A DNA stretch of 64,000 nucleotides from Nannocystis bainbridge (lineage in GTDB: Bacteria > Myxococcota_A > Polyangia > Nannocystales > Nannocystaceae). The stretch covers positions 2,464,001 through 2,528,000 of the forward strand of contig NZ_JAQNDL010000003.1 of assembly GCF_028368995.1 (NCBI RefSeq), in the 5' to 3' direction. Shown here piece after piece: positions 1,316-58,814 of this stretch. The notes beneath the pieces are model-generated. The model saw nothing but the letters and a program-made list of their open reading frames with translations. It ran no database searches and was not told the DNA's origin. How positions within the stretch are numbered: position 1 is the first letter of the stretch; each line of letters opens with the position of its first letter. The translations under genes were made by a program, and so were the position numbers.

Positions 1316-1912
1316 ATGCGGGTCACATCCCCGGTCGCCCTCAAAGAGTGGGCCGTTTTATGCGCGCGGCTCGAAGCCGGCGAGCAGAGCGTGCTCGTGC
1401 GCAAGGGCGGGATCCGCGAGCCCCGCGCGCCCGGGCAGGCGCCCACCTTCAGCCCCGAGCACCGCGGCTTCTGGCTGCTGCCGACCTTCTTCCACGCCCG
1501 CGAGCCCGGGCGCGACGTCGACCTCGCCCCGGCCGCGCGCGCTCGCCTGCCGCAGGTCCTCGCCGACGCCCCGCCGCCCGGCGTGTTGCGGCTGCGGCTG
1601 TGGGCCGAGGTCGACCTCGCCCTCGAGGTCCACGACCTCGCCGCGCTCGATCGCCTCGGCGACCGCCACGGACTCGACGCCGGGTGCGTCGCCGACCGCT
1701 TCGCCTATCGCAAACCTGGCCTTTGGGTCCTGTTCCTGAGGACCTATCGCTCGGGACAGGTCAGCGAGATCGCCGACCGCGCCGAGTACGCCGGCTGTCA
1801 CTCCTGGGTCGACCTCGCCGAGGAGGTCACCGGCGACGTCGAGCCCGTGCTGTCCGACCGCGAGCACGCCGAACGCCGCGCCGACCTGCGGTCCGCGCTG
1901 GGGGACCGATGA
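1316..1912 (+). CDS. DUF1802 family protein
   Basis: ALKEWAVLCARLEAGEQSVLVRKGGIRE, FWLLPTFFH and YAGCHSWV motifs; start trimmed from ORF 281..1912. Confidence 0.85.
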   Translation: MRVTSPVALKEWAVLCARLEAGEQSVLVRKGGIREPRAPGQAPTFSPEHRGFWLLPTFFHAREPGRDVDLAPAARARLPQVLADAPPPGVLRLRLWAEVDLALEVHDLAALDRLGDRHGLDAGCVADRFAYRKPGLWVLFLRTYRSGQVSEIADRAEYAGCHSWVDLAEEVTGDVEPVLSDREHAERRADLRSALGDR

Positions 1913-3231
1913 GCGACCCGGCGAACACCTGGCGCAGCCGGGCGGGGGCGATCCTCATCGTCCTCACCGTCATCAACTTCCTCAACTACATCGACCAGAT
2001 GCTGCTCAGCTCCGTGCTCGAGCAGATCAAGCTCGAGTTCAGCCTGAGCGACACCGCGGGCGGCCTGCTCGGCAGCCTGTTCGTCATCACCTATACGATC
2101 GCCGCTCCCCTCGGGTACCTCGGCGATCGCTTCCCGCGCAAGAACATCATCGCCGGCGGCGTCGCCCTGTGGAGCCTCGCCACCCTCGCCGCCGCGTTCG
2201 CCCGCAGCTACGAGGAGCTGCTCGTCTGTCGCGCCCTGCTCGGCATCGGCGAGGCCGCCTACGCCACCACCGCGCCCTCGATCATCGCCGACCTCTACGG
2301 CCCCGACCAGCGCAGCCGCAAGCTCGCCCTGTTCTACCTCGCCACTCCGGTCGGTTCGGCGCTCGGCTTCATCCTCGGGGGCCTCATCGGCGAGCATTTC
2401 GGCTGGCGCGCCGTGTTCCTGGTCGGCGGCCTGCCGGGGTTCGTGTTCGCCGCCCTGGTCGCGCGGATCGTCGAGCCCGAGCGCGGCCGGCTCGACCCGG
2501 CGAGCGCGCGGACCGAGGGCAACTTCTTCACCGCGCTGCGGCGGATCTTCCGCACCCCGGCGTGGGGCATCAACACCGTCGGCCTGGCGATGATGACCTT
2601 CACCGTCGGCGGCCTCTCGCTGTGGATGCCGACCTACCTCGAGCGCGTGCACGGCATGAGCACCGCCAGCGCCGGCCCCGTGTTCGGCGCCGTCACCGTG
2701 ATGGCCGGCCTGTGCGGCACCCTCCTCGGCGGCAGCCTCGGCGACCGCATGCAGGCCCGCTCGCCCGGCGGTTATTTCCGCCTCAGCGGCATGGGGTTGG
2801 TCCTGAGCGCCCCGCTCATCGTCCTGCTCACCCGCATGGAAGACCTCGTCGCGCTATTCGTGGTCGCCTTCTTCGCCGAGCTGCTGCTGTTCCTCAACAC
2901 TGGCCCGCTGAACGCCGCGCTGGTCGGCTGCGTGCCGGCGTGGCTGCGGGGCACCGCGTTTGCCGTCAACATCTTCTGCATTCACGCCTTTGGCGACGCG
3001 CTGTCGCGCACCTTGATCGGCTACGTGAGCGACCGGGCCAAGACCGCCTACCTCGCCGGTCAGGTGCAGACCGAGTCCGCGGTGCGGGCGGCCGAGGCCG
3101 CGGGCCTCAACCTCGCGATCGCCACCACCGCGATCCCGGTGCTGCTCGGGGGAATCGTCCTCTTGTGGGGCGCGCGCCGGATCGCTCGCGCGCCCGACGG
3201 GCTCATGACTCACTCGGACCCGCGCCGTTGA
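1909..3231 (+). CDS. MFS transporter (spinster-like)
   Basis: INFLNYID, GYLGDRFPRK (motif A), RALLGIGEA; about 12 hydrophobic segments; ATGA overlap with the upstream gene. Confidence 0.9.
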   Translation: MSDPANTWRSRAGAILIVLTVINFLNYIDQMLLSSVLEQIKLEFSLSDTAGGLLGSLFVITYTIAAPLGYLGDRFPRKNIIAGGVALWSLATLAAAFARSYEELLVCRALLGIGEAAYATTAPSIIADLYGPDQRSRKLALFYLATPVGSALGFILGGLIGEHFGWRAVFLVGGLPGFVFAALVARIVEPERGRLDPASARTEGNFFTALRRIFRTPAWGINTVGLAMMTFTVGGLSLWMPTYLERVHGMSTASAGPVFGAVTVMAGLCGTLLGGSLGDRMQARSPGGYFRLSGMGLVLSAPLIVLLTRMEDLVALFVVAFFAELLLFLNTGPLNAALVGCVPAWLRGTAFAVNIFCIHAFGDALSRTLIGYVSDRAKTAYLAGQVQTESAVRAAEAAGLNLAIATTAIPVLLGGIVLLWGARRIARAPDGLMTHSDPRR

Positions 3232-3328
3232 GGACAGGCGTCCGAGTGGACGCGCCCCCGCCGGCTCCCGTATCGTGTCGACAATTCTGCGCGCCCATCG
3301 CGGGCGCATCGCTCAGGAGCGCCTCCCG

Positions 3329-5089: not shown

Positions 5090-5161
5090 CGCTGCCCCTT
5101 GAACATGTCTCAGGGGTCAGATGGCCGGTCCACCGGCGACCGGCGCCATGTCCCTCGGAAC

Positions 5162-6532
5162 ATGTCCCTGAAGCCAGCTCCGGTTCTGCTCGCCGCGCTG
5201 CTCGCCGCCGGCTGCTTCGCCGACCTCGGCCCTGGCGAGCCGCAGCAGCAGACCGCTGGCCCCGACACCTCGACCACCGGCCCCGTCGAAGCCACCACTG
5301 GCCCCGCGGCGGTGTGCGGCGACGGCCTCGTGCAGCCGGGCGAGCAGTGCGACGCCGGCCCGCTCAACGGCGACTGGGCCATCTGCAAGACCGACTGCAC
5401 CGTCGCCGCCTGCGGCGACGGCCTGCGCGGCCCGACCGAGGCCTGTGACGGCGGCGACGACTGCCTGGACGACTGCACCCTGGTGCGCTGCGGCGACGGC
5501 CTCGTCAACCAGGCCAGCGAGCAGTGCGACGACGGCAACCGCGACGACAGCGACGCCTGCGCCAGCACCTGCCTCCCGGTCGGCTGCGGTGACGGCCTGC
5601 TGCAGGACGGCGAGGTCTGCGACCACGGCCCGCACAACGCCGACACCGCCGCCTGCACTTCCACCTGCACCCTCGCCGCCTGCGGCGACGGCTTCGTCGG
5701 CCCCGGCGAGGCCTGCGAGCCGAGCGACGCCGACCCTGCCTGCGGCCTCACCTGCGCCCTCGTCAGCTGCCTCGCCAACGACGAACCCGAGCGCGGCGAG
5801 CAGTGCCAGGTCGCCGACGACGGCTGCACCGAGCGCTGCCTGTTCGACGTCTGCGGCGACAACTTCGACGTCCTCGCCGAGCAGTGCGACGACGGCAACC
5901 TCGTCGGCGGCGACGGCTGCACCTCCGACTGCCAGCTCGAACTCTGCGGCGACGGCGTCCTCGTCGCCGCCGAGGCCTGCGACGACGGCAACCTCGACGC
6001 GGGCGACGGCTGCTCTGCCACCTGCGAGCGCGACGCCTCCTTCGTGTTCGTCACCGAGGGCACCTTCTCCGGCGCCCTCGGCAACGCCGACGCCGCCGAC
6101 GCCGCCTGCCAGGCCGAGGCCGACGCCGCCGCCCTGCCCGGCACCTACCGCGCCTGGCTCACCTTCCCCGGCGACCCTCCGGCCGCCAGCTTCGAGCGCT
6201 ACCCCCTCCCCTACCTCCTGCCCGGCTCCCTCGCCCCCGTCGCCAGCAGCTGGCTCACCCTCGTCGACGGCGACCTCGATCACCCCATCGACCGCACCGC
6301 CGCCGGCCTCGAGCTCCCCGGCGACCTCGCGTGCAGCGACCCCGCCAACCTCGCCTGGACGCACACCCGCGCCACCGGCAGCCCCTTCCCCGGCAACCCC
6401 TGCAGCGGCTGGCTGCTCGACAACGGCACCGCCGTCGCCGGCCTCGTCCACGCCACGGGCCTCGGCTGGACCGAGGGCTGCCCCGACATCGCCTGCGCGC
6501 AGCAGCTCCACCTCTACTGCATCCAGCAGTAG
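5162..6532 (+). CDS. Second Cys-rich repeat / DUF1554-like lipoprotein (tandem paralog)
   Basis: Lipobox AAGC; CGDG...EQCDDGN repeats; FVT...ADAAC...YRAWL...AWT...LYCIQQ. Confidence 0.85.
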   Translation: MSLKPAPVLLAALLAAGCFADLGPGEPQQQTAGPDTSTTGPVEATTGPAAVCGDGLVQPGEQCDAGPLNGDWAICKTDCTVAACGDGLRGPTEACDGGDDCLDDCTLVRCGDGLVNQASEQCDDGNRDDSDACASTCLPVGCGDGLLQDGEVCDHGPHNADTAACTSTCTLAACGDGFVGPGEACEPSDADPACGLTCALVSCLANDEPERGEQCQVADDGCTERCLFDVCGDNFDVLAEQCDDGNLVGGDGCTSDCQLELCGDGVLVAAEACDDGNLDAGDGCSATCERDASFVFVTEGTFSGALGNADAADAACQAEADAAALPGTYRAWLTFPGDPPAASFERYPLPYLLPGSLAPVASSWLTLVDGDLDHPIDRTAAGLELPGDLACSDPANLAWTHTRATGSPFPGNPCSGWLLDNGTAVAGLVHATGLGWTEGCPDIACAQQLHLYCIQQ

Positions 6533-6556
6533 GATCCACCACCGCGCTCGCGGGCC

Positions 6557-8056: not shown

Positions 8057-8087
8057 GAGGCTTCATCCATCCGGGCCTCCGTGGTAT

Positions 8088-8107
8088 ATGCGTAGGCACC
8101 TACGCAT
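8088..8107. promoter_or_regulatory. Perfect inverted repeat, probable MarR operator
   Basis: ATGCGTAGG-CA-CCTACGCAT in the 49-bp divergent spacer, overlapping the MarR start codon. Confidence 0.75.
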
Positions 8108-16559: not shown

Positions 16560-16841
16560 GCCCGATCGCGGCAGCGCGACCTCGAGCCCGACCACGACCT
16601 CTCGCGAATCAATCTGTCCTTCGAGACACATCAAAACCGCGACTCGCCGCTGCCCTCTCACCTTCTGCCTCCGCGTGTCTCACCACCCGACATCGAGGCA
16701 TGACTCTGCGGCTCGCGCTTCGGCACCAACGACCTCCTCTTCGCCTCAGCGCATCGCGCATGCCCGCGGAGCATCGCTTCCATCCCGCACGACGCGTCAC
16801 CGCCCCACCGCTTCGCCCCTGCACCAATCAGCCGCGAGCTC

Positions 16842-20095: not shown

Positions 20096-20639
20096 GCGCT
20101 CGTCCGCACGAGCGAGTTCGTCGCGCCGAGCTCGCCCGCACGAGCGCCTTCGCCGCCAGGAACTCGCGCTGAGCGGCTCTGCCTCGCGGCGAAAGTGACA
20201 GTGCCCGCCGCCCTCATGCGCACCCGCGCCCGATCCGCTCCTGCTGTCCCACACGCGGCCGGCGACAGCGCCTCCGTGACCGGGTTCCCGGCCGACGCGA
20301 TCGCTGTCACTTTCTCCCCCGCCGACATCGCCCCGGCGTCCGGGTTCCCGCCGCGGCGCACCTGCTTCGCCCGCGACAACGGCCCCTGACGCAGGTTCCC
20401 GGGCGAGTTCGTCGCGTGCTGCCCACACATTTTTTCGCGACCCGAGGAACCGCGACCCCGGGCCTCTGTCTGTAGCCGCGTCGACGGTGCTGCGACGGCG
20501 AGGCGGGAGGCGGCTGCGAACCAGCCCATCCGCCGCCGCGACGGACCCCCGCGCGGCGAGACGAGCCTGCTCGTCGAGACAGTACCCAAAGAACATGTCC
20601 CTTCGGTCATTTCATTTTGCCGAGAAAGTCAGTGACGCC

Positions 20640-28271: not shown

Positions 28272-28299
28272 TGTCCATCCGGACATGTCCTCGAAGACA
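28272..28299. repeat. Two tandem units of the 14-bp dyad TGTCY-N4-RGACA
   Basis: TGTCCATCCGGACA TGTCCTCGAAGACA between convergent genes. Confidence 0.8.
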
Positions 28300-29912: not shown

Positions 29913-31238
29913 TCAACGCCGGCGGCGCCGCGCCAGCAGCACCAATCCGGCGAGCAGCCACGAGCTGTCTCGAAGGACAGGTTGACCCGAAGCGCAGGAG
30001 CAGCCGCGCTCGGCCAGCTCGCCGCCGTCGGCCCCGGCGCTGTCGTCGTCGCCGCTGTCGTCCCCGCCGTCGCTGCTGCTGCCCGGATCGCTCGGCCCCG
30101 GGGGCTCGGGCTGCGGCTGCGGCTGCGGCTGCGGCTCGGGCTGCGGTGGCGGCGGTTCGGGCTCGGGTTGCGGCGGCGGCGGCTCGGGCTCGGGTTGCGG
30201 CGGCGGCGGTTCAGGCTCGGGCTCCGGCTCCGGCTCCGGCTCGGGATCAGGCCCGGGGAACGGTCCCTGGCCGAACGGCTCGCCGCACATGGCGCTCCAG
30301 CCCCCTGTCAGCGTCGTCGAGCAGCCGTCGCCCCACGTGCTCTGCGGGTCCATCAATTCGCCCGGGAACCCGCCGCAGTTGGCCGTCGGCGTCCAGTTGC
30401 CGTCGATGTCGAAGCACGGCGAAAGATCGACCCCCGCCGCTTGCTCGAGCCAGGCCATGTGCGGCCAGAACATCTCGTAGACCGTCCCGAACCCGCACAC
30501 TTCCTCGTTGGGGCCCGGCGGCGGATCGTCGAGGTGCAGCGTCGAGGCTGCGCCGAGCAGGCGCCACGTGCCGTCGCCCAGGCGCAGGTACGCCGGCCCG
30601 CCCGAGTCGCCGAAGCACCCCCCGTGGTCGGGCCCGACCATGATGATGTCGTTGCCGTCGAGCGACACCTCGATGACGCTCTGCTGCGTGAACCGCTTGG
30701 TGCCCCCGCCGATCGGCTGCGGGTTGCCCTCTCCGTCGAGCACGGCATTGGTCGCGCCGAAGCCGACGATCGTGACCTCCGAGCCCACCAGCGGCGCGAT
30801 CTCGCAGCCCATGATGAGCGGCACCATCGGCACCCCGAGCACCGCCTGCTCGAGCGTGCAGAACGCGAGGTCGTTGACCAGCGCGCCCGGGTCCCACTGC
30901 GGATGCGTGAAACACTCGGCGACCGGCACCTGGCGCACCGGCGCTGCGACGTCCTCCCCGAACATCACGCTTCCGGGCACGGCCCACGACAGCAGCGGGT
31001 CCATGCAGTGCGCCGCGAACACGACGACGTTGGGATGGACCAGCGAGCCGGTGCAGAAGAAGCCCTCGGTGTCGCGGTCGAGCATCGCCACCGCGCTCGG
31101 GAAGTCGCACTCGCCCGCGACCTCACCGTTGAAGATCGGCTGCGGCCGCGAGCTCGGGGCGGCCAACTCGAAGGCCGACGCCTGACCCGTAACCAGCGCC
31201 ACGAGCCCGCCGACCGCCACCGCCGCGAATGCACGCAT
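29913..31238 (-). CDS. S1 trypsin-like serine protease with MYXO-CTERM sorting signal
   Basis: FAAHC, NDLA and CFGDSGGP triad motifs; (PE)n linker; GCSC...WLLAGLVLLARRRRR tail. Confidence 0.92.
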   Translation of the reverse strand: MRAFAAVAVGGLVALVTGQASAFELAAPSSRPQPIFNGEVAGECDFPSAVAMLDRDTEGFFCTGSLVHPNVVVFAAHCMDPLLSWAVPGSVMFGEDVAAPVRQVPVAECFTHPQWDPGALVNDLAFCTLEQAVLGVPMVPLIMGCEIAPLVGSEVTIVGFGATNAVLDGEGNPQPIGGGTKRFTQQSVIEVSLDGNDIIMVGPDHGGCFGDSGGPAYLRLGDGTWRLLGAASTLHLDDPPPGPNEEVCGFGTVYEMFWPHMAWLEQAAGVDLSPCFDIDGNWTPTANCGGFPGELMDPQSTWGDGCSTTLTGGWSAMCGEPFGQGPFPGPDPEPEPEPEPEPEPPPPQPEPEPPPPQPEPEPPPPQPEPQPQPQPQPEPPGPSDPGSSSDGGDDSGDDDSAGADGGELAERGCSCASGQPVLRDSSWLLAGLVLLARRRRR

Positions 31239-32104: not shown

Positions 32105-32174
32105 TGTCCTCGAGGACATTTCTTTAAAGAAATGTACTCGAGAACATTTCCCTACGAACATGTCCTCTCAGACT
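32105..32174. repeat. Five-unit array of the 14-bp dyad
   Basis: TGTCCTCGAGGACA TTTCTTTAAAGAAA TGTACTCGAGAACA TTTCCCTACGAACA TGTCCTCTCAGACT. Confidence 0.85.
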
Positions 32175-32386
32175 TGTCCACGGACGGGCGCTCCGTGGTG
32201 AGCATCGATCTCTCGCCCGATCTACCCGCTGCACACACGTCAGTCTGCAGGAAAGGCGCGACCAGGCTCCGATCCCGGTCGACGCGGACCGCCGCGATCA
32301 CCAGGCGGGTCGAGCTGCGGCCGCTCGCGCATGCACCACGTGGCCCGGAGCACGACCTCGCAGCGGCCGCTGCCTGGCCACTCGCC

Positions 32387-34716: not shown

Positions 34717-34902
34717 TGTCCGCCGAGACATGCCCTTGAGGACATCCTCTTGAGAACCGCGGCGCCGGCGCATCCGGGCGAGAATCACTTTTGAAAGATC
34801 GCCTCCCTGGGGTCCGGGGTCGTCACTCCTTGCGACCGCAGGGTCCAGCGACCTCACACCTATCCCTTAACACATGTCTTCTTGAACATGTCTCATGGAA
34901 CA
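34717..34902. repeat. Two three-unit arrays of the 14-bp dyad
   Basis: 34717: TGTCCGCCGAGACA TGCCCTTGAGGACA TCCTCTTGAGAACC; 34861: TATCCCTTAACACA TGTCTTCTTGAACA TGTCTCATGGAACA. Confidence 0.75.
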
Positions 34903-35714
34903 TCGACGTCATCCAGGTAAAACTGCCCCGACTTCACCAGCACCGCTCGTCCCGTGATCAGCACCCGGTCGCCGGCCAGCTCGCACGTCAGCTCGCCGCT
35001 GCGGCGCGACACCTGGCGGGCCCGCAGCCGCTGCTTGCCCAGGCGGTCCGCCCACAGCGGCGTCAGCGTGCAGTGGGCCGAGCCCGTCACCGGGTCTTCG
35101 GGGATCCCCTGCGCCGGCGCGAAGCAGCGCGACACGAAGTCGACATCCGCGTCGGGCTCGCCGCCGGGCGCCGTGGCGATCACCGCGAACACATCGGGCA
35201 GGCGCAGCATCGCCGCGAAGTCGGGGCGCAGCGCCCGGACCTCCGCCGCGCTGGTGAACACCGCCACCAGGTCGCGCGCCACCAGCACCTCCGCGGGCCG
35301 GCGGCCGAGCGCCGCGAATAAACCTTCGGACATGTCCCCGGGGACAGCCGGACGCGACAGCAGGTCGAGCGTGAACGCCTCGCCGGTGCGGGTCACCGTG
35401 AGCGGGCCTGACATCGTCCAGAAGCGCAGCCGGTCCGGCGCGTCCGCGCGCACGTGCGAGTGGACGAACGCCGCGGCCAGGGTCGCATGACCACACAGAT
35501 CGACCTCGACCTCCGGGGTGAACCAGCGCAGGTCGAAGTCGTCCGTGCCGGGGCGCGGCGCGTAGAAGGCCGTCTCGGACAGCGCGTTCTCGGCCGCGAT
35601 CTGCTGCAGCAGCGCATCGGGCAGCCACGCCTGCAGGGGGCACACGGCGGCAGGGTTGCCGGCGAAGCGGCGGCTCGTGAACGCGTCGACGTGGAAGCAG
35701 GCGATCTCGGTCAC
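34893..35714 (-). CDS. PhzF family isomerase
   Basis: VDAFT...GNPAAV, LSETAF, LRWFTPEVEVDLCGHATLA, EDPVTGSAHC. Confidence 0.93.
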   Translation of the reverse strand: MTEIACFHVDAFTSRRFAGNPAAVCPLQAWLPDALLQQIAAENALSETAFYAPRPGTDDFDLRWFTPEVEVDLCGHATLAAAFVHSHVRADAPDRLRFWTMSGPLTVTRTGEAFTLDLLSRPAVPGDMSEGLFAALGRRPAEVLVARDLVAVFTSAAEVRALRPDFAAMLRLPDVFAVIATAPGGEPDADVDFVSRCFAPAQGIPEDPVTGSAHCTLTPLWADRLGKQRLRARQVSRRSGELTCELAGDRVLITGRAVLVKSGQFYLDDVDVP

Positions 35715-40760: not shown

Positions 40761-41408
40761 ATGCAGAACGACCCCTCGCTGCAACCTCTGAAGCCGCTGC
40801 TCGATGCCCTGGCGTTCACCACCGAGTTCGGCCGTGAGCTCGGCGAGCTGGCGCCGACCGAGGCGCTGCGGGCCGGCCTGTCTCTCGGGACATCCACGCC
40901 GCTGCCGCCGGCCGACGACCGCGTCCGCGCCGCCGTGCGTGACCTGCTGCGCAAGGCCGGCTTCAAGCCGACCGGGCGCTCCAAACCAGCCTCGGAGTAC
41001 CTGCTCAAGGCGGCCGGCGACGGCTCGCTCGGCAGCATCAACGCCGCGGTCGACGCCTGCAACGTCGCCTCGCTCCACAGCGGCCTGCCGATCAGCGTCG
41101 TCGACCTCGACCGCGCGACCGCCCCGCTGGCGCTCGGCGTGCCGGCGCCGGGCACCAGCTACGTGTTCAACGCCAGCGGCCAGGTCATCGACATCGGCGG
41201 CCTGGTGTCGCTGCTCGACGCCGAGGGCCCGTGCGCCGGCCCGGTCAAGGACTCGCAGCGGACCAAGACCCACCCCGGCACCCGCCGCACCCTCTCGATC
41301 GTGTGGGGCACCACCCAGCTGCCCGGCCTCGCCGCCGCCACCGCCGCGTTCTACCGCGAGCTGCTGCACGGCCTCGGCGCGACCACCGAGACGGTCACGT
41401 TCGAGTAG
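40761..41408 (+). CDS. B3/4 domain protein (PheRS beta editing-like)
   Basis: FKPTGRSKPASEYL, INAAVDACNVASLHSGLPISVVDLD, VKDSQRTK. Confidence 0.85.
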   Translation: MQNDPSLQPLKPLLDALAFTTEFGRELGELAPTEALRAGLSLGTSTPLPPADDRVRAAVRDLLRKAGFKPTGRSKPASEYLLKAAGDGSLGSINAAVDACNVASLHSGLPISVVDLDRATAPLALGVPAPGTSYVFNASGQVIDIGGLVSLLDAEGPCAGPVKDSQRTKTHPGTRRTLSIVWGTTQLPGLAAATAAFYRELLHGLGATTETVTFE

Positions 41409-41476
41409 CCTCTCGGGACATGTCCTGTAGAGCATGCCCTCACGGACATGCTCTTGAGAGCATGCCCCTCAGGGCA
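41407..41476. repeat. Five-unit array of the 14-bp dyad filling a convergent spacer
   Basis: AGCCTCTCGGGACA TGTCCTGTAGAGCA TGCCCTCACGGACA TGCTCTTGAGAGCA TGCCCCTCAGGGCA. Confidence 0.85.
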
Positions 41477-43224: not shown

Positions 43225-45084
43225 ATGCGTGTCTCGCCGCTCCTCCTCGCCCTCGCGCTCGGGGGCGCGTGTGCGACGGCCGTCGCTGCCCCCGCGCCGA
43301 CGTCCGCCGAGTGGTCGGCGCGCGAGCGCAAGCAATTGGTGCAGTACGAGGTGGCCCTCGCCGCTCCCGAGTCGCGCTGGCTCGAGATCGTCATGACCGT
43401 CGAGCAGCCTCGCGGTCGTCGCAGCGACGTCGCCCTGCCGGCGTGGATCCCCGGCTCTTATTTGATCCGCGACTTCGCCCGCAACCTCGACGGGATCGAG
43501 GTCACCGACGTCGCCGGGGTGTCGCTGCCGGCCGAGCGCCTGGACAAACAGACATGGCGCATCGGACATGGCGGAAAGAGCTTCCGCGCCCGCTACCGGG
43601 TGTGGGCCGACGAGCCCGGGGTGCGCACCAGCGTGGTCGACGACCGCCACGCGACCCTCAACGGCGCCGGCCTGTTCCTCTACCTCGTCGGCGAGACGGC
43701 GCGCCCGGCCGAGCTGCGCTTCACCGGCCTGCCGAAGGACTGGACCGTGCACGCCGCCCTGCCGCAGCCGACCCCTGGCACCCTGCGCGCGGCCTCCTAC
43801 GACGTCCTGGTCGACTCGCCGCTCGAGCTCGGCACGCCGGTGGTCCACGCGTGGGACGAGGGCGGCGCGCGCATCGAGCTGGTGTTCTCGGCCCCGGCCG
43901 GCAGCAACGCCGACCCCGAGCGGCTGGCCCGCGAGCTCAAGCCGCTGGTCCACGCCTTCGCGGTGGCGATGGGCGGCCTGCCGACCTCGCGCTACGTGTT
44001 CTTGATGCTCGCCGACGAGAAGGGCGACGGCGGGCTCGAGCACGCCGACAGCACGCTCATGCGTGTCCCGAGGGACATGTTCCAGGACGACGGCGGCTAC
44101 CGCCGCGCGCTCCACCTCGCCGGCCACGAGTTCTTCCACCTGTGGAACGCCAAGCGACTGCGCGACGCGGCGCTGGTGCCCTACGACTACGCGCGCGAGG
44201 ATTACAGCCGGCTCCTGTGGTTCCACGAGGGCTTCACCGAGACGATCGAGAACCAGATGCTGGTGCGCGCCGGGGCGACCACGCCGGACGAGTTCTTGCG
44301 CGAGCTCGCGGGCGCGTGGACGGCCTACTTGCAGAAGCCCGGGCGCAACCACGTGCCGCTGACGCAGGCCAGCGTCGAGGCGTGGGTCAAGCAGTACAAG
44401 CCGTCGCCGGGCCACCACGACACCACCATCAGCTACTACGAGAAGGGCCACCTCGCCGGCGTCTGCCTCGACCTCGAGCTGCGCCTGCGCTCGCATGGCA
44501 AGGGCTCGCTGGTCGGGCTGTTCCGCCGCCTGATGACCAGCCACGGCGCGCGCGGCAAGGGCATCACCTTCGACGACGTCGTCGCCGCCGCCTCGGCCGA
44601 AGCCGGCAGCGACGTGCGCGACTTCTTCCGCCGCTACGTCGAGGGCACCGACGAGCTTCCGCTTCCCGCGCAGCTGGCGCGAATGGGTGTCGAGGTCGAG
44701 ATTCGCGCGCCGTCGGCGAGTGAGTCATCGCCGCTGGCGGCCCGCCGCAAACAGGGCTGGTCCGGGCTCCTCTTCAACGACAGCGGCATCCGCAGCGTCG
44801 CCCTCGGCTCGCCCGCAGCGCTCGCGGGTCTGCTGCCCGGCGACGAGATCGTCGCCGTCGCCGCCCGCCGCACCCGCACCGCCGAAGAGGCCGCCGAGCG
44901 CCTGATGGACCACGCTCCCGGCCAGTCGGTCGAAGTCGCCCTCTTCCGCGGCGGCCGCCTGCTGCAGCGCACCCTCACGATCGCCGAGGACCCACGAAAG
45001 CTGGTCCGCTTCGCCGTTTCACCGACAGCAGAGTCTGCTGTCCGCGCCCTCCGCGACGCCTGGCTCTCGACTTCGCCGAAGTGA
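43225..45084 (+). CDS. M61 family aminopeptidase with PDZ domain
   Basis: PAWIPGSYLIRDF, GGLEH, HEFFHLWNAKR, LWFHEGFT, ISYYEKG, C-terminal PDZ. Confidence 0.92.
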   Translation: MRVSPLLLALALGGACATAVAAPAPTSAEWSARERKQLVQYEVALAAPESRWLEIVMTVEQPRGRRSDVALPAWIPGSYLIRDFARNLDGIEVTDVAGVSLPAERLDKQTWRIGHGGKSFRARYRVWADEPGVRTSVVDDRHATLNGAGLFLYLVGETARPAELRFTGLPKDWTVHAALPQPTPGTLRAASYDVLVDSPLELGTPVVHAWDEGGARIELVFSAPAGSNADPERLARELKPLVHAFAVAMGGLPTSRYVFLMLADEKGDGGLEHADSTLMRVPRDMFQDDGGYRRALHLAGHEFFHLWNAKRLRDAALVPYDYAREDYSRLLWFHEGFTETIENQMLVRAGATTPDEFLRELAGAWTAYLQKPGRNHVPLTQASVEAWVKQYKPSPGHHDTTISYYEKGHLAGVCLDLELRLRSHGKGSLVGLFRRLMTSHGARGKGITFDDVVAAASAEAGSDVRDFFRRYVEGTDELPLPAQLARMGVEVEIRAPSASESSPLAARRKQGWSGLLFNDSGIRSVALGSPAALAGLLPGDEIVAVAARRTRTAEEAAERLMDHAPGQSVEVALFRGGRLLQRTLTIAEDPRKLVRFAVSPTAESAVRALRDAWLSTSPK

Positions 45085-45209
45085 CGCGCGCTCCCGCCAG
45101 CGATCACCTAGGGGCGCGCGCGTGAGGTGTGCTTCATGATGTCCCAAGAGACATATCATGACAATCGCCGGCCCTGCGGCCGCGGTGATTCTGCGATTAC
45201 CATGATGGT

Positions 45210-48649: not shown

Positions 48650-48761
48650 TGACTCTCACGACATGTCCTTTACAACATGTCCTTTACAACATGTCCTTTA
48701 CAACATGCCCTTTATAACATGCCCGTTCGGACATGCCCCATGCAGCATGTCCGAACGGTCA
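48650..48761. repeat. Eight-unit array of the 14-bp dyad
   Basis: TGACTCTCACGACA, 3x TGTCCTTTACAACA, TGCCCTTTATAACA, TGCCCGTTCGGACA, TGCCCCATGCAGCA, TGTCCGAACGGTCA. Confidence 0.9.
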
Positions 48762-51847: not shown

Positions 51848-52010
51848 CTCTCGAAGTATGCGAGGGTCTCCTCGCTCTGGGGAGCTCGATGTCTCGAAGT
51901 GCGAGGGTCTCCTCGCCCTGGAGAGCTCGAGGTTTCGAAATGCGCGGGTCAGCTCGCCCTGCGAAGCCCGAGGTCTCGAAGTGCGAGGGTCAGCTCGCCC
52001 TGGAGAGCTA
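51848..52010. repeat. Four tandem ~41-bp repeats with an internal hairpin
   Basis: Unit GTCTCGAAGTGCGAGGGTCTCCTCGCCCTGGAGAGCTCGAG at about 51848, 51891, 51932 and 51973. Confidence 0.85.
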
Positions 52011-52165: not shown

Positions 52166-53374
52166 ATGGCACGCACCCGCGATCTCGTCGCATTGTCCGC
52201 CATCCTCATCGCCCCGCTCGCTGCGATCCTCGTCTCGCAGGCGCTGCCCTCGCTCGCGGTCGACGGGACCGAGCCTGCGCCTACGCGGCCGCAACCGCTC
52301 GCTGCGCCGATCGTGACCGCCCCGCCTGCGGTCGCCCCGATCGCCAGCGAGCCCGCCTGCCCCGCGCCCCAGGCTGCGCCCGGCGAGCCGCTCAGCCAGC
52401 CCAGCTTGCCCGCGGCCGCCGGCCTGTTCGGCGACGCCTTGCTCGTGCGCAAGGAGTCGCTCGTGCTGCACACCGCCGCCGAGCGCCGCTGGGCCAGCGG
52501 TCGCCCCGTCATCACGGCCGAGCCCGGCCACTTGCTCGCCACCCGAGCTGTCCATTGGGATAGCCTGCCGGAGGACCTGCGCAGCCTCGAGGACGCCACC
52601 ATGGTCGTGCACGCCGCTGACGGCAGCACCTGCGTCGCCGCGGTCGGCGAGCCCAAACTCCACCTCGAGCAGATCGGCGACGTCTTCCATCACATCGGCG
52701 ACGACGGCCAGGAGAGCTTCGATCCGCCCGCCGACAAACGTGTCCTTCGGGACATGGTCAAGCAGCTGTTCGCCGAGACCGACGACCTGTTGCTGCTGGC
52801 GCGCCAGCGCGGCGCCTCCGGCCTGTCTTGCGACGGCCTGTGGGCCCGGCGGGCCGACCTCCCGCCCGCCACCGTGTTCGGGCGCCGCAGCCTCGACGAC
52901 GCCGACGCCGCCGCGCTCACGGCCGAGGCTGCGCCGGTCGTGCGGGCTCAGCCCGAGTTCGCCGCCCTCGCCGGTGAGTACGCCGAGTACCTCGCGCCGA
53001 TGGACACCGAGCGCCGCGCCGACCTCCCCGCCTGGGACGCCTTTGTCGCCGCCAACCTCAGGACCGAAGCCTGGCGCGAGATCGGCGGCTCGCGCCAGAT
53101 CGTCAGCGTCCAGCTCCAGTTGCTCGATCGCATGGCCTGCAGCGACGAGTTCGGCGGCACCCTCGCCCTGCTGCTCGAGCGCCGCGACGGCGAGCTCGTC
53201 CGCATGGTCCAGCCTGGCTGGCTCGGCCTCTCCGCGCTCATGGACCTCGAGGGCGACGGCGTGCTCGAGGCCGTCACCGACGACGGCTTCGAGACCGTCC
53301 TCCACACCCACGCCAGCGACGGCGCCGACCTCCGCGACGCCTACTCGGTGCCCTACGTCGGCTGCCCGTGCTGA
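52166..53374 (+). CDS. Exported hypothetical protein
   Basis: N-terminal TM/signal, Pro-rich linker, typical codon bias, C-terminal VPYVGCPC. Confidence 0.7.
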   Translation: MARTRDLVALSAILIAPLAAILVSQALPSLAVDGTEPAPTRPQPLAAPIVTAPPAVAPIASEPACPAPQAAPGEPLSQPSLPAAAGLFGDALLVRKESLVLHTAAERRWASGRPVITAEPGHLLATRAVHWDSLPEDLRSLEDATMVVHAADGSTCVAAVGEPKLHLEQIGDVFHHIGDDGQESFDPPADKRVLRDMVKQLFAETDDLLLLARQRGASGLSCDGLWARRADLPPATVFGRRSLDDADAAALTAEAAPVVRAQPEFAALAGEYAEYLAPMDTERRADLPAWDAFVAANLRTEAWREIGGSRQIVSVQLQLLDRMACSDEFGGTLALLLERRDGELVRMVQPGWLGLSALMDLEGDGVLEAVTDDGFETVLHTHASDGADLRDAYSVPYVGCPC

Positions 53375-54603: not shown

Positions 54604-54897
54604 TCACCGCAGCACGATGAAGCTGAGCGGCATCTCCGAGTCGACGGCTTCCCAGTCCACGTCGATCGCTGCCACCCGGGCCGAGGGCGGGCCTTTGCGG
54701 CACCACTCGATCAGCGCTTCCACCCTGGCGCGGGTGCCCTGGGCGCGCAGCTCGACGCAGCCGTTGGGCAGGTTGCGGACCCACCCGCGCAGGCCGAGCG
54801 CCTGGGCCCGGGCTTGCGCGCTGGCGCGGTAGTACACGCCCTGGACGCGCCCGTCGATGCACACGAGCGCCTGGACCACTTCGAGCTCCTGTCCCAT
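54604..54897 (-). CDS. acyP: Acylphosphatase
   Basis: GRVQGVYYR, GWVRNLPNG, GPPSARV. Confidence 0.93.
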   Translation of the reverse strand: MGQELEVVQALVCIDGRVQGVYYRASAQARAQALGLRGWVRNLPNGCVELRAQGTRARVEALIEWCRKGPPSARVAAIDVDWEAVDSEMPLSFIVLR

Positions 54898-54959
54898 CGG
54901 CCCTGTCCTCGGTAACCTGTGCGATCGGCCATATCCCGGGGAACATGTCCCCGGGACCA
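54890..54959. repeat. Five degenerate units of the 14-bp dyad upstream of and overlapping the acyP start
   Basis: TGTCCCATCGGCCC TGTCCTCGGTAACC TGTGCGATCGGCCA TATCCCGGGGAACA TGTCCCCGGGACCA. Confidence 0.65.
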
Positions 54960-54967
54960 GCCGAATC

Positions 54968-55798
54968 CTAGTCTTCCAGCGCCCCGCCGGCGATCCACGC
55001 CTCGATGAGCGCCAGCTTCGCGTCGTCCATCAGGCCCATCGGCGGCGGCATCAGCGTGCCCGCCCCGCCCTCGTCCTCGAAGCCGCCTGCCAGCTTGAGG
55101 TACAGGTAGCTCGCGGCCGGGTCGCTCGGCTCGACCAGGTCGAGGGCGACCGACGGCGACTTGACGTCGACCAGCGCCGCGTACGAGTCGCCCATCGGCA
55201 GGCTGAGGTTGCCGTTGGCCGCGCTCGCCGCGGAGAAGTGGCACGAGCAGCTGGCGTCGATGATCGCCTGCACGTTGGCGAACGTCGGCTCGGCTGGTTC
55301 GCCGGTGGTGTCGGTCCCGCCGGTGTCGGTGTCGGTGTCTACGCCGCCGGTGGTCGCCGGCCCGCCGCCCTCGAACTCCGCGCCCGCGATCCACGAGAGG
55401 ATCACCTGGTTGTTGGGGTTCAGGAAGTCGTTGTCGGCCGGCATGCGCGGCACGGTGCGCGTGAGGCCGAGGCTCGACAGCAGCACGTCGGGCAGCATCA
55501 CGATCGCCAGGTACGAGTTCACGGTGTCGCCGAGGGTCACCAGCGGCACCCCGTTGATCTCGCCGGTGAGGATGCCGTCGATCTCGTCGCCGGCCAGGAT
55601 CGGCAGCGTCGCCCCGGGCGAGTGACAGCCGGACTTGCCGCAGCTGGCCTCGAGCGCCTCACGCACGGCCGGCGGCACGCCGCCGCCGCCGCTGCCGCCG
55701 CTGCCGCCGGTCTCGATCGCCTCGAGCTGGTTGCAGCCCGCGAGCAACGTCGTCGTCGCCAGGGCGAGGGACACGGACTTGAATGTCTTCCGGGACAT
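54968..55798 (-). CDS. Lipoprotein with two cytochrome c-like domains carrying non-canonical heme motifs
   Basis: LLAGC lipobox; CGKSGCH...SYL...RMP...WI; CSCH...VEPSDPAASYLYLKL...LMPP...WIAGGA. Confidence 0.75.
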   Translation of the reverse strand: MSRKTFKSVSLALATTTLLAGCNQLEAIETGGSGGSGGGGVPPAVREALEASCGKSGCHSPGATLPILAGDEIDGILTGEINGVPLVTLGDTVNSYLAIVMLPDVLLSSLGLTRTVPRMPADNDFLNPNNQVILSWIAGAEFEGGGPATTGGVDTDTDTGGTDTTGEPAEPTFANVQAIIDASCSCHFSAASAANGNLSLPMGDSYAALVDVKSPSVALDLVEPSDPAASYLYLKLAGGFEDEGGAGTLMPPPMGLMDDAKLALIEAWIAGGALED

Positions 55799-58210: not shown

Positions 58211-58719
58211 GCGCGCGTCCCGTCGGCGTGCTGTTCGTCTGCTACGCCAACATCGTCCGTTCGCCGCTGGGCGCCGCCGTGTTCGCGCGGCTCGCGGACG
58301 AGCGCGGCCTGACGGCGCGCTTCCGCATCGACAGCGCAGGCGTGGCGGCCGACGCCGGCAACCCGGCCCACCCCGGCAGCGTCCGCGTCGCCGCCGACCA
58401 CGGCCTCGCGCTGGTCCACCAGAGCCGGCTGCTGCGCCGCGACGACCTGTTCGAGTTCGACGAGGTGCTCCTGCTCGACCGCCTTGTCGCGTCCGAGCTG
58501 CGCCGCCTCACCGCCGGCTCCGCCTTCGGCCCGATCGCCGGCGCCGGCCAGCAGGCGCGCATCCGGTTGCTCGCGTCGCTCGCCGACCCCAGCGCCCGCG
58601 GCGCCGACCTCGACGTGCCCGACCCGGTGCGCGGCGGCCCCGAAGGCTTTCTGGCGGCCTACCGGCAGATCGCTCGCGCCTGCGCGGCCCTGGTCGACGA
58701 GCTCGCCGGCAAGACCTGA
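58207..58719 (+). CDS. Low-molecular-weight protein-tyrosine phosphatase family
   Basis: VLFVCYANIVRSP (CX5R), IDSAG, DVPDP; ATGA overlap. Confidence 0.88.
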   Translation: MSARPVGVLFVCYANIVRSPLGAAVFARLADERGLTARFRIDSAGVAADAGNPAHPGSVRVAADHGLALVHQSRLLRRDDLFEFDEVLLLDRLVASELRRLTAGSAFGPIAGAGQQARIRLLASLADPSARGADLDVPDPVRGGPEGFLAAYRQIARACAALVDELAGKT

Positions 58720-58730
58720 CGACACCGACC

Positions 58731-58814
58731 TGCTTCGAGAGACATGCTCCAACGAGCATGCTCTCCAGGACAGGTTCGATCGAACATGCTCGATCGGGCA
58801 TGTTCGAGAGGGCA
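58731..58814. repeat. Six-unit array of the 14-bp dyad at a convergent spacer
   Basis: TGCTTCGAGAGACA TGCTCCAACGAGCA TGCTCTCCAGGACA GGTTCGATCGAACA TGCTCGATCGGGCA TGTTCGAGAGGGCA. Confidence 0.85.

What the first reader, a model, noticed from the sequence alone, without database searches (positions are those of the whole stretch)
1731..58814. Highly iterated 14-bp dyad TGTCY-N4-RGACA across the whole window: candidate chromosome-wide protein-binding or HIP1-like element
Seen: exact TGTCY-N4-RGACA copies start at 16615, 28272, 28286, 29966, 32105, 34717, 35333, 40879, 44064, 45140, 45922, 52741 and 55784. Near copies occur at, for example, 1731, 5149, 20596, 36911, 37689, 48352, 49400, 51072 and 52549. 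My rough independent-base estimate at about 72% GC gives only about 0.1 exact copies per 64 kb. The central 4 bp vary while the arms stay symmetric, as expected for a site read by a dimeric protein. Sites recur every few kb regardless of gene function, which is unlike a regulon. Known analogues are cyanobacterial HIP1, DNA-uptake sequences, matS/SlmA/Noc sites and REP/BIME; the sequence matches none that I know (parS is a 16-bp TGTTYCACGTGRAACA). Inference: an undescribed nucleoid-organising, topoisomerase-targeting or methylation/repair-linked motif in this lineage.
Basis: partly seen in the sequence, partly recalled or inferred. Interest (0 to 1): 0.85.

Follow-up and report, generated by a model that had tools for sequence, protein, structure and literature searches.

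The report
Genus-wide iterated DNA dyad arrays
A 14-base symmetric DNA word, TGTCC-4 bases-GGACA, occurs thousands of times in this soil myxobacterium and its close relatives, often in head-to-tail rows just after genes. It looks like the landing site of an unidentified DNA-binding protein and is not in the literature I could search.

Summary
All 13 exact copies are at the stated coordinates; 100 shuffles gave a mean of 0.07. The 11.05-Mb genome holds 2,982 exact copies at N4, against 3-29 at every other spacing from N0 to N12. About 6,245 copies lie within one mismatch, against about 250 at N3 or N5.

- **Arrays:** units form strictly phased 14-bp tandem arrays of up to 9 units.
- **Location:** density is highest in convergent intergenic regions, then tandem, divergent and coding (2.40, 1.02, 0.40 and about 0.12 per kb).
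- **Stop codons:** arrays abut stop codons.
- **Coding copies:** 1,154 exact copies lie inside real genes, against about 40 after synonymous-codon shuffling.
- **No hairpin signal:** the two arms vary independently, with no pairing covariation, almost no G.U strand bias and no T-run. This indicates a two-fold symmetric protein reading duplex DNA.
- **Not a classical REP:** no Y1/RAYT transposase was found.
- **Distribution:** the element is confined to Nannocystis, with about ten-fold fewer copies in two sister genera. It is at background in 14 other genera of the family and in 250 other Myxococcota genomes.

The binding protein and the function are not identified. No description was found in the literature.

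The parts
1731..1758 (.). two degenerate 14-bp units in phase (2 mismatches each)
5149..5176 (.). two units in phase (1 and 2 mismatches), at the start of the called gene 5162-6532
16615..16628 (.). exact single dyad, intergenic
20596..20609 (.). single unit with 1 mismatch, intergenic
28272..28299 (.). two exact units head to tail in a convergent intergenic region, beside a conserved hairpin plus T-run terminator (about 28213-28242)
29966..29979 (.). exact dyad inside the called gene 29913-31220 (-); kept with 1 mismatch in 3 of 4 other species
32105..32188 (.). array of six phased units starting 6 nt after the end of gene 31299-32099. Orthologous arrays in 5 other genomes differ in unit number and centres
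34717..34758 (.). three phased units inside a stretch that is an intact coding sequence in the 5 relatives compared but is decayed here
34861..34902 (.). three phased degenerate units next to the 3' end of the PhzF-like gene
35333..35346 (.). exact dyad inside the PhzF-domain gene (34893-35888, -). Exact in all 4 other species, with a different centre in 2
40879..40892 (.). exact (Y/R) dyad inside gene 40761-41408
41407..41476 (.). array of five phased units right after the end of gene 40761-41408
44064..44077 (.). exact dyad inside the peptidase M61 gene (42871-45084), read as V-P-R-D. Kept in 4 of 4 species (0-1 mismatch) with a synonymous change of centre
45140..45153 (.). exact dyad in a tandem intergenic region, 56 nt after a stop codon
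45922..45935 (.). exact dyad inside the sigma-54 activator gene (AAA lid region). Identical in 3 of 4 species
48650..48761 (.). array of eight phased units, three of them identical, in the gap between called genes 47788-48441 (+) and 48796-49752 (-)
52741..52754 (.). exact dyad inside the called gene 52193-53374. Exact in 3 of 4 species
54890..54959 (.). array of five phased degenerate units between genes 54604-54897 (-) and 54968-55798 (-)
55784..55797 (.). exact (Y/R) dyad 6 nt from the stop of gene 55803-57434 (-), overlapping the called start of 54968-55798 (-). Identical in 4 of 4 species
58759..58814 (.). degenerate phased units (2 mismatches) after gene 58207-58719

Best explanation
The unit is a roughly 20-bp two-fold symmetric site, R-S-M-TGTCC-N4-GGACA-K-S-Y. 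It is read on duplex DNA by a sequence-specific symmetric protein, most simply a homodimer with one subunit per arm.

The single dyad is the ancestral form; it is the only form seen in the sister-genus sample. In Nannocystis the sites multiplied to about 6,000-9,500 per genome. They also formed phased 14-bp head-to-tail arrays in which the outer flank of one site is the arm of the next. Neighbouring dimers would therefore sit 14 bp (about 120 degrees) apart, and they probably bind cooperatively.

Sites accumulate wherever the DNA tolerates them:
- They fill non-coding DNA at gene 3' ends right up to the stop codon.
- They are rare near promoters.
- Inside genes they are written into synonymous positions.
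- They are sparse in low-GC, probably recently acquired, DNA.

My most likely function is architectural. I propose an abundant lineage-specific DNA-binding protein that coats gene 3' ends, acting as a nucleoid-structuring or boundary/roadblock element, with weaker single sites along genes.

Shown: enrichment, strict spacing, independent arms, array phasing, placement and phylogenetic range. Inferred: that a protein dimer reads the site (I put this at about 0.85), cooperative binding, and the architectural or boundary role (about 0.4). The confidence given is for the whole statement.
For: **Enrichment and spacing**
- N4 gives 2,982 exact copies against 3-29 at other spacings.
- It is the only massively over-represented 5-N4-5 dyad: TGTCC observed 1,987, expected 12.8.

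**Sequence reading, not pairing**
- G2/C13 is kept in 1,987 of 2,051 sites in which the other four pairs are intact.
- Most departures from consensus are one-sided.
- Mutual information between mirrored positions is 0.007-0.020 bits, below that of neighbouring positions. Complementarity is 1.01-1.12 times the independence expectation.

**Extended flanks.** Isolated exact sites still show flank preferences: -3 R, -2 S, -1 M in 517 coding and 529 intergenic singles.

**Arrays**
- CATG-N10-CATG occurs 3,736 times against 66-298 at other spacings.
- There are 5,446 arrays of 1-9 units.
- Tandem Repeats Finder independently-bp periods in the window.

**Placement**
- Density per kb is 2.40 convergent, 1.02 tandem and 0.40 divergent.
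- Arrays are present in 678 of 1,250 convergent, 869 of 3,336 tandem and 221 of 1,449 divergent regions of at least 40 bp.
- 101 of 1,256 arrays start exactly on the stop codon, and 537 of 1,256 start within 0-11 nt of it.

**Coding copies.** Copies lie inside real domains and number 1,154 against 32-48 after synonymous shuffling.

**Sister genus.** All 17 units printed from the 196-kb sample are solitary.

**Composition.** Density rises from 0.9 to 8.7 units per 10 kb with GC content.
Against: - No binding protein was identified.
- The one DNA-binding candidate I profiled, a BlaI-like protein beside a promoter-side array, has homologues of equal or better identity in motif-less genera.
- A roadblock or boundary role fits poorly with positive enrichment inside genes. 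Units within one mismatch number 2,641 in coding DNA.
- Across four other species, the arms of coding units diverge only slightly less than their flanks and no less than the centre. Arms differ at 37 of 450 positions (0.082), flanks at 311 of 2,700 (0.115) and centres at 14 of 180 (0.078), from 45 unit-by-species pairs in one 36-kb region. Purifying selection on coding copies is therefore not clearly shown.
- A small excess of G.U-compatible variants lies on the sense strand: 939 against 790.
- Some arrays fold into long hairpins as RNA: -38.3 kcal/mol, z = -7.3 for window 48650-48761. An RNA-level side effect is therefore not excluded.
- All gene calls come from my own codon-usage caller, not from a curated annotation.
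Confidence: 0.45

Rival explanations
1. It is a DNA-uptake or 'self-DNA' recognition sequence, like DUS/USS and as now proposed for cyanobacterial HIP1. A symmetric receptor of the competence or recombination machinery prefers the dyad. Uptake plus recombination then drives copies into every tolerated position of resident DNA, with no need for a local function.
For: - Copy density is of the same order as recalled for DUS/USS: 0.27 exact copies and 0.57 one-mismatch copies per kb.
- Copies occur both in genes, at synonymous positions, and immediately after stop codons.
- The range is lineage-specific.
- Copies are depleted in low-GC zones with low coding density.
- ComEC and DprA are present.
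- HIP1 is now proposed as an uptake sequence (abstract of PMC13756078; abstract start of bioRxiv 10.1101/2024.09.10.611283).
Against: - ComEC and DprA also appear in 10-11 of 14 control genomes, so they do not discriminate.
- Phased tandem arrays of up to 9 units are not a feature of DUS/USS as I recall them.
- Spacing between clusters is not even (coefficient of variation 1.18).
- I know of no evidence of natural transformation in Nannocystis, and none was searched for.
Confidence: 0.2
2. It is a methylation-linked highly iterated palindrome in the HIP1 sense. The dyad, or the CATG formed at unit junctions, is the target of an orphan DNA methyltransferase. Its abundance follows from an epigenetic or repair role.
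For: - It is palindromic, highly iterated, and present in both coding and non-coding DNA.
- The CA|TG junction is the best-kept part of arrays.
- The genome encodes many adenine or N4 methyltransferase domains: at least 9 loci with PF01555, 3 strong PF02384 loci and 1 PF02086 locus.
- HIP1 is recognised by two methylases (abstracts seen).
Against: - No methyltransferase was tied to the motif or to its phyletic range; none was profiled.
- No C5 methyltransferase domain was found.
- The sister genus has single dyads without the CATG flank, so CATG is a product of adjacency and not the core.
- A 10-16-position bipartite site with an N4 gap is unusual for known methyltransferases (recalled).
- Methylation does not explain the phased arrays.
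Confidence: 0.1
3. It works at the RNA level. The units are hairpins in mRNA 3' ends that terminate transcription without a U-tract or protect transcripts from 3' exonucleases. This would resemble REP elements or the U-tract-less terminators proposed for high-GC bacteria.
For: - Arrays start at or within 11 nt of the stop codon in 537 of 1,256 cases.
- Density follows the order convergent, then tandem, then divergent regions.
- My crude scan called a canonical hairpin plus T-run terminator in only about 10% of convergent regions.
- Arrays fold well as RNA: z = -7.3, -3.6 and -4.3 for three of the four multi-unit window arrays folded.
- There is a small sense-strand excess of G.U-compatible variants, 939 against 790.
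- Centres of units two apart are reverse complements 3.4 times more often than random pairs, 96 of 2,207.
Against: - There is no pairing covariation within units.
- At pair 5/10, C..A and T..G variants are equal, 147 against 146, when oriented with transcription.
- The 54:46 bias runs in the direction I recall for transcription-associated mutation bias.
- No T enrichment follows the sites.
- A single unit folds at only about -6 kcal/mol.
- 39% of exact copies lie inside genes, spread along them.
- One identical arm sequence genome-wide is not required for pairing.
- Array-level mirror symmetry of centres is 0.296 against 0.273 for random pairs.
Confidence: 0.1
4. These are preferred cleavage or binding sites of a type IIA topoisomerase (gyrase or topo IV), placed where transcription piles up positive supercoils, as reported for REP/BIME in E. 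coli. The 4-bp unread centre would correspond to the 4-bp stagger between the two cuts.
For: - The dyad is centred on exactly 4 unread bases.
- Density is highest between convergent genes.
- Array sizes show a bump at 5-6 units, about 70-84 bp.

The 4-bp stagger and the REP-gyrase link are recalled, not taken from a call.
Against: - As I recall, gyrase specificity is weak and broadly conserved. A 20-bit site confined to three genera would need a lineage-specific change in the enzyme or an adaptor; this was not examined.
- The 14-bp phasing does not match a helical repeat.
- Copies inside genes are not predicted.
Confidence: 0.07
5. It is a REP/MITE-like mobile repeat spread by a transposase.
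For: - It clusters in extragenic arrays at 3' ends.
- It has conserved arms with a variable centre, as I recall for the E. coli REP consensus.
- The number of units per array differs between species at the same locus.
Against: - No Y1/RAYT transposase domain was found in the genome, which is 90% complete.
- 1,154 exact copies sit in-frame inside genes, which insertion of a 14-bp element cannot produce.
- No gene family recurs beside arrays. The largest cluster holds 29 of the 830 flanking genes, and the clusters were not annotated.
- Only 26 of 4,389 adjacent unit pairs are identical.
- Other transposase families were not searched.
Confidence: 0.03

Closest known systems
HIP1, the highly iterated palindrome of cyanobacteria (GCGATCGC)
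   Same: It is a palindromic word iterated thousands of times in both coding and non-coding DNA. It is lineage-specific and kept at orthologous positions, and its function is long unclear. It is now linked to methylases and proposed as an uptake signal. I saw the abstracts of PMC4390886 and PMC13756078 and the start of a bioRxiv abstract.
   Different: HIP1 is a contiguous 8-mer that contains methylase sites. The present element is a bipartite 5+4+5 dyad with an unread centre and extended flanks. It forms phased 14-bp tandem arrays, is strongly biased to gene 3' ends, and is confined to three genera and not a whole phylum. Methylation was not tested.
REP/BIME elements of enterobacteria and pseudomonads (recalled)
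   Same: Short dyad repeats with conserved arms and a variable centre. They cluster in arrays after genes and between convergent genes, and are species- or genus-specific.
   Different: REPs are extragenic hairpins tied to RAYT transposases. Here 39% of exact copies are inside genes. The arms show no pairing covariation. No Y1 transposase domain was found. Units are strictly head to tail at 14 bp and do not alternate in orientation.
DNA uptake sequences, DUS of Neisseria and USS of Pasteurellaceae (recalled)
   Same: Density is about 0.3-0.9 copies per kb. Copies lie inside genes in tolerated frames and just downstream of genes. The distribution is lineage-specific.
   Different: DUS/USS are asymmetric 9-12-mers and do not form phased tandem arrays. 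Uptake bias is untested here.
Neisseria dRS3/NIME repeats (recalled)
   Same: Hundreds of copies of a short repeat with conserved inverted arms and a variable centre, arranged in intergenic mosaics.
   Different: dRS3 repeats flank longer repeat units and serve as phage integration targets. Here units abut each other directly and also lie inside genes. No link to integrases was examined.
Tandem operator arrays bound cooperatively by small dimeric repressors, for example metbox arrays or plasmid centromere repeats (recalled)
   Same: Each unit is a short palindrome and units are repeated head to tail in strict phase, so adjacent dimers can touch.
   Different: Those arrays occur at a handful of promoters or at one centromere. 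Here there are 5,446 loci genome-wide, with the lowest intergenic density in promoter-side (divergent) regions.

Membership tests
REP/BIME | Strictly extragenic location | tested here: not met
   1,154 of 2,982 exact copies lie wholly inside called genes. Window examples sit inside Pfam domains.
REP/BIME | Hairpin-forming imperfect palindrome with pairing kept | tested here: not met
   Mirrored positions have mutual information of 0.007-0.020 bits and complementarity of 1.01-1.12 times expectation. Changes are mostly one-sided.
REP/BIME | Cognate RAYT (Y1 transposase) in the genome | tested here: not met
   PF01797 gave 0 matches in G000, which is 90.5% complete. The control search found it in 6 of 14 genomes.
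REP/BIME | Clusters after genes and between convergent genes | tested here: met
   Density is 2.40 per kb in convergent regions, 1.02 in tandem and 0.40 in divergent.
HIP1-like highly iterated palindrome | Palindromic word iterated far above expectation in coding and non-coding DNA | tested here: met
HIP1-like highly iterated palindrome | Contains the site of a cognate orphan methyltransferase and is methylated | not testable with these tools
   Methyltransferase domains are present, but none was linked to the motif and no modification data were available.
DUS/USS uptake sequence | About one copy per kb, lineage-specific, in genes and just after genes | tested here: met
DUS/USS uptake sequence | Preferential uptake of motif-bearing DNA by competent cells | not testable with these tools
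   ComEC and DprA are present, but they are also found in most control genomes.
Intrinsic (hairpin plus U-tract) terminator | GC-rich hairpin followed by a T-run on the transcribed strand | tested here: not met
   The logo oriented with transcription shows no T enrichment after the site. The single-unit stem folds at about -6 kcal/mol.
Intrinsic (hairpin plus U-tract) terminator | Strand-specific tolerance of G.U over C.A | tested here: inconclusive
   146 against 147 at pair 5/10. 939 against 790 over all pairs in 3,167 units.
Transcription-factor regulon operator | Dyad with fixed spacing and independently read half-sites | tested here: met
Transcription-factor regulon operator | Tens to hundreds of sites concentrated in promoter regions | tested here: not met
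   There are thousands of sites. Divergent (promoter-side) regions have the lowest intergenic density, and arrays cover 1.2% of their bases against 14.4% in convergent regions.
Chromosome-organising sites (parS, matS, Noc/SlmA sites) | Tens of sites, regionally confined on the chromosome | tested here: not met
   The 6,245 units are spread over all five contigs. Most 100-kb bins hold 10-108 units; the lower counts are in end-of-contig bins.

The most novel reading that the evidence does not exclude
Nannocystis uses a dedicated sequence-specific DNA-binding protein that polymerises on phased dyad arrays placed directly after stop codons. The arrays occupy more than half of the spaces between convergent genes. 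They would act as orientation-independent, protein-based ends of transcription units (roadblock terminators or insulators) in a genome where hairpin plus U-tract terminators are scarce. This would be a bacterial counterpart of DNA-bound terminator proteins such as mTERF or RTP (recalled), but used genome-wide.
Probability: 0.15. Interest if true: 0.9.

Novelty: new variant of a known kind. Interest (0 to 1): 0.72.

Why it matters
Genome-wide iterated words such as HIP1, DUS/USS, REP and Chi each led to a piece of chromosome biology. This element is as abundant as those: about 1.2% of the genome, or 137,684 bp, lies in arrays.

It has an anatomy none of them shows:
- a bipartite dyad with independently read arms;
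- strict 14-bp phased arrays;
- arrays that run up to the stop codon;
- copies written into synonymous sites of genes.

It appears in one culturable, sequenced genus, with a graded presence in two sister genera and none in the 14 other genera of the family that were searched. That pattern is close to ideal for finding the responsible protein by phylogenetic profiling and pull-down. If the protein marks gene ends or self DNA, the finding bears on how high-GC bacteria with few classical terminators end transcription, and on how myxobacterial chromosomes of 11-13 Mb are organised. The dyad is also a practical marker of resident versus acquired DNA in these genomes.

Tried and rejected
**Chance or composition.** Rejected by the dinucleotide shuffles, the off-spacing controls, the reversed-pattern controls, the ranking of all 5-N4-5 dyads and the codon shuffles.

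**A protein motif or one repeated gene family as the source of coding copies.** Rejected. Copies lie in unrelated genes and use two reading frames about equally, 1,252 and 1,069 of 2,641.

**An N5 variant of the same arms in another genus of the family (G035 sample).** Rejected. The excess at N2, N5, N8 and N11 is codon periodicity. No other iterated 4-Nx-4 dyad appeared in that 400-kb sample.

**Mesorhizobium hits to the double unit as a clue to the binding protein.** In the one locus I read of 14, the match is part of a long unrelated perfect palindrome. I dropped this lead and did not read the other 13.

**Binding-protein search through arrays in divergent regions.**
- 22 such arrays of at least 3 units were found.
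- I scanned 16 flanking small proteins against Pfam.
- Two are DNA-binding: a BlaI-like PF03965 protein and an Xre-type HTH_3 protein.
- Only the BlaI-like one was profiled over 67 genomes, and it does not follow the motif.
- The Xre-type protein and the domain-less proteins were not profiled.

**Intrinsic-terminator co-occurrence.** My crude predictor called terminators in 10-12% of convergent regions but also in 15-19% of divergent ones, so it is mostly noise and I draw nothing from it.

**Other blanks.**
- Rfam found no family in the window.
- RNA evidence: no RNA holder was listed.
- The structure, complex and protein-database searches were not used, because no candidate protein justified them.

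**Literature.** Eight searches found no description of this motif in Nannocystis or other myxobacteria. Supplementary files were not consulted. Subscription papers are outside the library, so 'not in print' holds only for what was searched.

Full report
**Observation.** In 100 dinucleotide-preserving shuffles the mean count was 0.07 and the largest was 2. In the window, N4 spacing gives 13 exact, 22 one-mismatch and 66 two-mismatch copies. N3 gives 0/3/34 and N5 gives 0/1/26.

**Genome-wide numbers and nulls.** The window is G000:C2:2464001-2528000 in an 11,048,555-bp genome of 5 contigs with 71-72% GC.
- The genome holds 2,982 exact copies, of which 1,987 are the strict form TGTCC-N4-GGACA. 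The same arms at N0-N3 and N5-N12 occur 3-29 times.
- At N4 there are 1,987 copies with no mismatch, 4,258 with one and 7,530 with two. At N3 the figures are 16/250/2,968 and at N5 they are 5/267/4,617. I therefore estimate roughly 6,000 secure units, and perhaps 9,500 in all.
- Among all perfect 5-N4-5 dyads, this one stands alone. TGTCC is observed 1,987 times against 12.8 expected, and TGTCT 127 times against 0.6.
- The reversed (not complemented) pattern occurs 6 times.
Shuffling synonymous codons within each called gene leaves 32-48 exact copies in coding sequence (10 shuffles, mean 40.1), against 1,154 observed. The N5 control in coding sequence gives 7.

**Anatomy.** The logo of all exact sites extends beyond the 14-mer to about A-C-A/C | TGTCC yyrr GGACA | T/G-G-T.
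- Part of the extension comes from neighbouring units. Distances between successive sites peak at 14, 28, 42 and 56 bp.
- In-register printing shows rows of 2-8 units in the window.
- Isolated exact sites still show -3 R, -2 S, -1 M and the mirror image on the other side (517 coding and 529 intergenic singles). The site proper is therefore about 20 bp.
- In arrays, the outer flank of one site is the arm of the next.
- CATG-N10-CATG occurs 3,736 times, against 66-298 for N6-N9 and N11-N14.
- I anchored on units with at most 1 mismatch and chained 14-bp steps with at most 3 mismatches. This gives 5,446 arrays. The sizes are 3,264 singles, 1,140 doubles, 495 triples, then 163, 209, 130, 33, 10 and 2 for four to nine units, with an unexplained bump at 5-6 units.
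- Tandem Repeats Finder independently reports 14-bp periods at 34727, 34872, 48661, 54930, 58776 and 58785, and a 28-bp period at 32103.
- Only 26 of 4,389 adjacent unit pairs are identical, and 128 share the centre. The arrays are therefore not fresh slippage products.

**Location.** No gene calls were supplied, so I trained a codon-usage caller on the genome. It gave 8,196 genes and 84.7% coding. Pfam confirmed several window calls.
- Of the 2,982 exact sites, 1,798 are intergenic, 1,154 are inside genes and 30 straddle an edge.
- Density is 2.40 per kb in convergent regions (657 sites in 274,168 bp). It is 1.02 per kb in tandem regions (940 in 922,280 bp) and 0.40 per kb in divergent regions (201 in 496,748 bp). 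In coding DNA it is about 0.12 per kb.
- Arrays cover 14.4%, 4.3% and 1.2% of the bases of those three intergenic classes.
- Arrays are present in 678 of 1,250 convergent, 869 of 3,336 tandem and 221 of 1,449 divergent regions of at least 40 bp.
- In tandem regions, sites sit a median of 70 bp from the upstream stop and 193 bp from the next start.
- Of 1,256 arrays of at least two units near a gene end, 101 begin exactly on the first base of the stop codon, with TGA doubling as the TG of the first unit. 537 begin within 0-11 nt of it.
- Inside genes, units lie in real domains. Window examples are peptidase M61, PhzF and the lid of a sigma-54 activator.
- Coding units use two frames about equally, 1,252 and 1,069 of 2,641, and are spread along genes.
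- Units are fewer in low-GC DNA: 0.9 per 10 kb below 66% GC against 8.7 per 10 kb above 74%.
- The poorest 100-kb zones I checked have lower GC or a lower coding fraction.
- Cluster spacing is close to random, with a coefficient of variation of 1.18 and an excess of long gaps.

**Duplex DNA or hairpin.** If pairing mattered, the arms should covary. They do not.
- With the other four pairs held at consensus, most departures are one-sided. G2/C13 is almost invariant, kept in 1,987 of 2,051 sites.
- In a set anchored only on the CATG junctions, mirrored positions have mutual information of 0.007-0.020 bits. That is below neighbouring positions, which reach up to 0.249 bits. Complementarity is 1.01-1.12 times the independence expectation.
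- Oriented by the flanking genes, C..A and T..G at pair 5/10 are equal, 147 against 146.
- Over all pairs in 3,167 units, the G.U-compatible state is on the sense strand 939 times against 790. This small bias runs in the direction I recall for transcription-linked mutation bias.
- No T-run follows the sites.
- A single unit folds at about -6 kcal/mol. Some arrays can form long inter-unit hairpins as RNA, for example -38.3 kcal/mol with z = -7.3 at 48650-48761.
- Array-level mirror symmetry of the centres is only 0.296 against 0.273 for random pairs. However, centres two units apart are reverse complements 3.4 times more often than random pairs, 96 of 2,207.

I conclude that the conserved feature is the sequence of each arm on duplex DNA. 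That is the signature of a two-fold symmetric protein.

**Mobile element?**
- No Y1/RAYT transposase domain is present.
- No gene family recurs next to arrays. The largest cluster holds 29 of 830 flanking genes, and I did not annotate the clusters.
- In-frame copies inside genes cannot arise by inserting a 14-bp element.

**Phylogenetic range.**
- In the tool's 30 relatives, all 10 same-genus genomes hold 185-3,312 Y/R copies. One genome from each of two other genera of the family holds 259 and 353. The remaining 6 genera of the family and 12 other families hold 0-19, with controls at 0-20.
- Over 67 genomes and 17 genera of the family, the strict pattern gives 333-2,090 copies in genus g1. 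It gives 87-169 in g2 (4 genomes) and 67-295 in g4 (5 genomes). All other genera give 0-20.
- In 250 further genomes of the phylum (179 genera) the highest count is 14 and the highest control count is 28.
- A scan of one genome per species of bacteria and archaea for the exact double unit returned 49 stretches. Of these, 32 are in records titled Nannocystis and 14 are in Mesorhizobium. The other 3 are single metagenome-assembled genomes of other phyla.
- In the one Mesorhizobium locus I read, the match is part of a long unrelated palindrome.
- A 196-kb sample of a g4 genome has 3 exact and 15 one-mismatch units at N4, against 0/5 at N3 and 0/2 at N5. All 17 units printed are solitary.
- A 400-kb sample of another genus (g22) has none above the codon-periodic background and no other iterated dyad.

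The single dyad is therefore the older form, and arrays are a Nannocystis development.

**Orthologous positions.** The window region is syntenic in five same-genus genomes at 72-93% identity.
- Intergenic arrays sit at the same places, but they differ in unit number and in the central four bases. At 32105 the relatives carry 2-4 units with variant arms.
- I followed 22 units between 26,000 and 62,000. Five, all intergenic, had no alignment in any of four species. Coding units were mostly kept. For example, 35333 is exact in 4 of 4 species with a different centre in 2, and 55784 is identical in 4 of 4.
- Measured over 45 gap-free unit-by-species pairs, arms differ at 37 of 450 positions (0.082). 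Centres differ at 14 of 180 (0.078) and flanks at 311 of 2,700 (0.115). The extra conservation of arms in genes is slight, and the sample is small.

**Interpretation.** Shown:
- a lineage-specific, highly iterated, strictly spaced dyad;
- arms that are read independently;
- phased arrays that fill non-coding DNA at gene ends up to the stop codon;
- copies written into synonymous sites of genes.

Inferred: a symmetric DNA-binding protein reads the site, and neighbouring dimers on arrays probably interact. The function is open. I favour an abundant architectural or boundary protein at gene 3' ends, at about 0.4 within a protein-read framework of about 0.85. The main difficulty is that copies inside genes are enriched and not avoided. 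That would fit better with a signal that is useful, or is driven, anywhere in resident DNA. Such a signal could be an uptake or self-recognition sequence, as now proposed for HIP1 (abstract of PMC13756078). Methylation, topoisomerase and RNA-level readings remain possible at lower odds, and the REP-like mobile reading is unlikely.

**Comparison with the literature.** Searches for this motif or for any iterated palindrome in Nannocystis, Sorangium, Polyangiaceae or myxobacteria found nothing relevant. The N. exedens genome note mentions only 'complex and large repetitive regions' that blocked closure; I saw passages only. The features of REP/BIME, DUS/USS, dRS3, metbox-type arrays and the topoisomerase stagger are recalled from general knowledge, not from a call.

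**Limits.**
- Gene calls are my own.
- No expression data or modification data were available; no RNA holder was listed.
- Only one candidate protein was profiled.
- Supplements of papers were not seen.

Noticed in passing
window 34025-34892: This stretch aligns to an intact, conserved coding sequence in five same-genus genomes. Here it carries several deletions and frame breaks, and a three-unit dyad array (34717-34758) replaces part of it. It looks like a decayed gene with an array at the junction.
   Followed up: partly
window about 28213-28242: A classical GC-rich hairpin plus T-run terminator is conserved in the five genomes that could be aligned at this locus (G000 and four relatives). 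It lies immediately beside the dyad units in a convergent intergenic region.
   Followed up: partly
window 51841-52009: A 41-bp tandem repeat of 4.1 copies at 83% match lies in the intergenic region before gene 52193-53374. It is unrelated to the dyad.
   Followed up: no
window 3718-4465 and 5810-6013: Coding tandem repeats with periods of 96/288 bp and 93 bp, rich in TGC and GAC codons. They look like cysteine-rich repeat domains in two neighbouring genes.
   Followed up: no
window 5163-16614: No unit with one mismatch or fewer occurs for about 11 kb. GC content is 0.66-0.70 here, against 0.71-0.73 in most of the window. This fits the genome-wide drop of the motif in low-GC DNA and may mark acquired DNA.
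   Followed up: partly
genome-wide (G000): Array sizes show a bump at 5-6 units: 163, 209 and 130 arrays of 4, 5 and 6 units. Centres of units two apart are reverse complements 3.4 times more often than random pairs, which gives a minority of three-unit 'super-palindromes' such as 32105-32146.
   Followed up: partly
L057 5785-5900 (Mesorhizobium record): A perfect palindrome of about 44 bp is present twice, 67 bp apart, and happens to contain the double dyad. Thirteen other Mesorhizobium records matched the same pattern, so this is probably a genus-wide hairpin repeat of its own.
   Followed up: partly
G000 C3:179592-180002: A BlaI/MecI-type repressor gene (PF03965) lies 188 bp downstream of a five-unit array in a divergent region. 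It has a 75%-identical paralogue at C2:919257-919664. Both copies recur in the large same-genus genomes (G001, G003, G005, G007, G010).
   Followed up: partly
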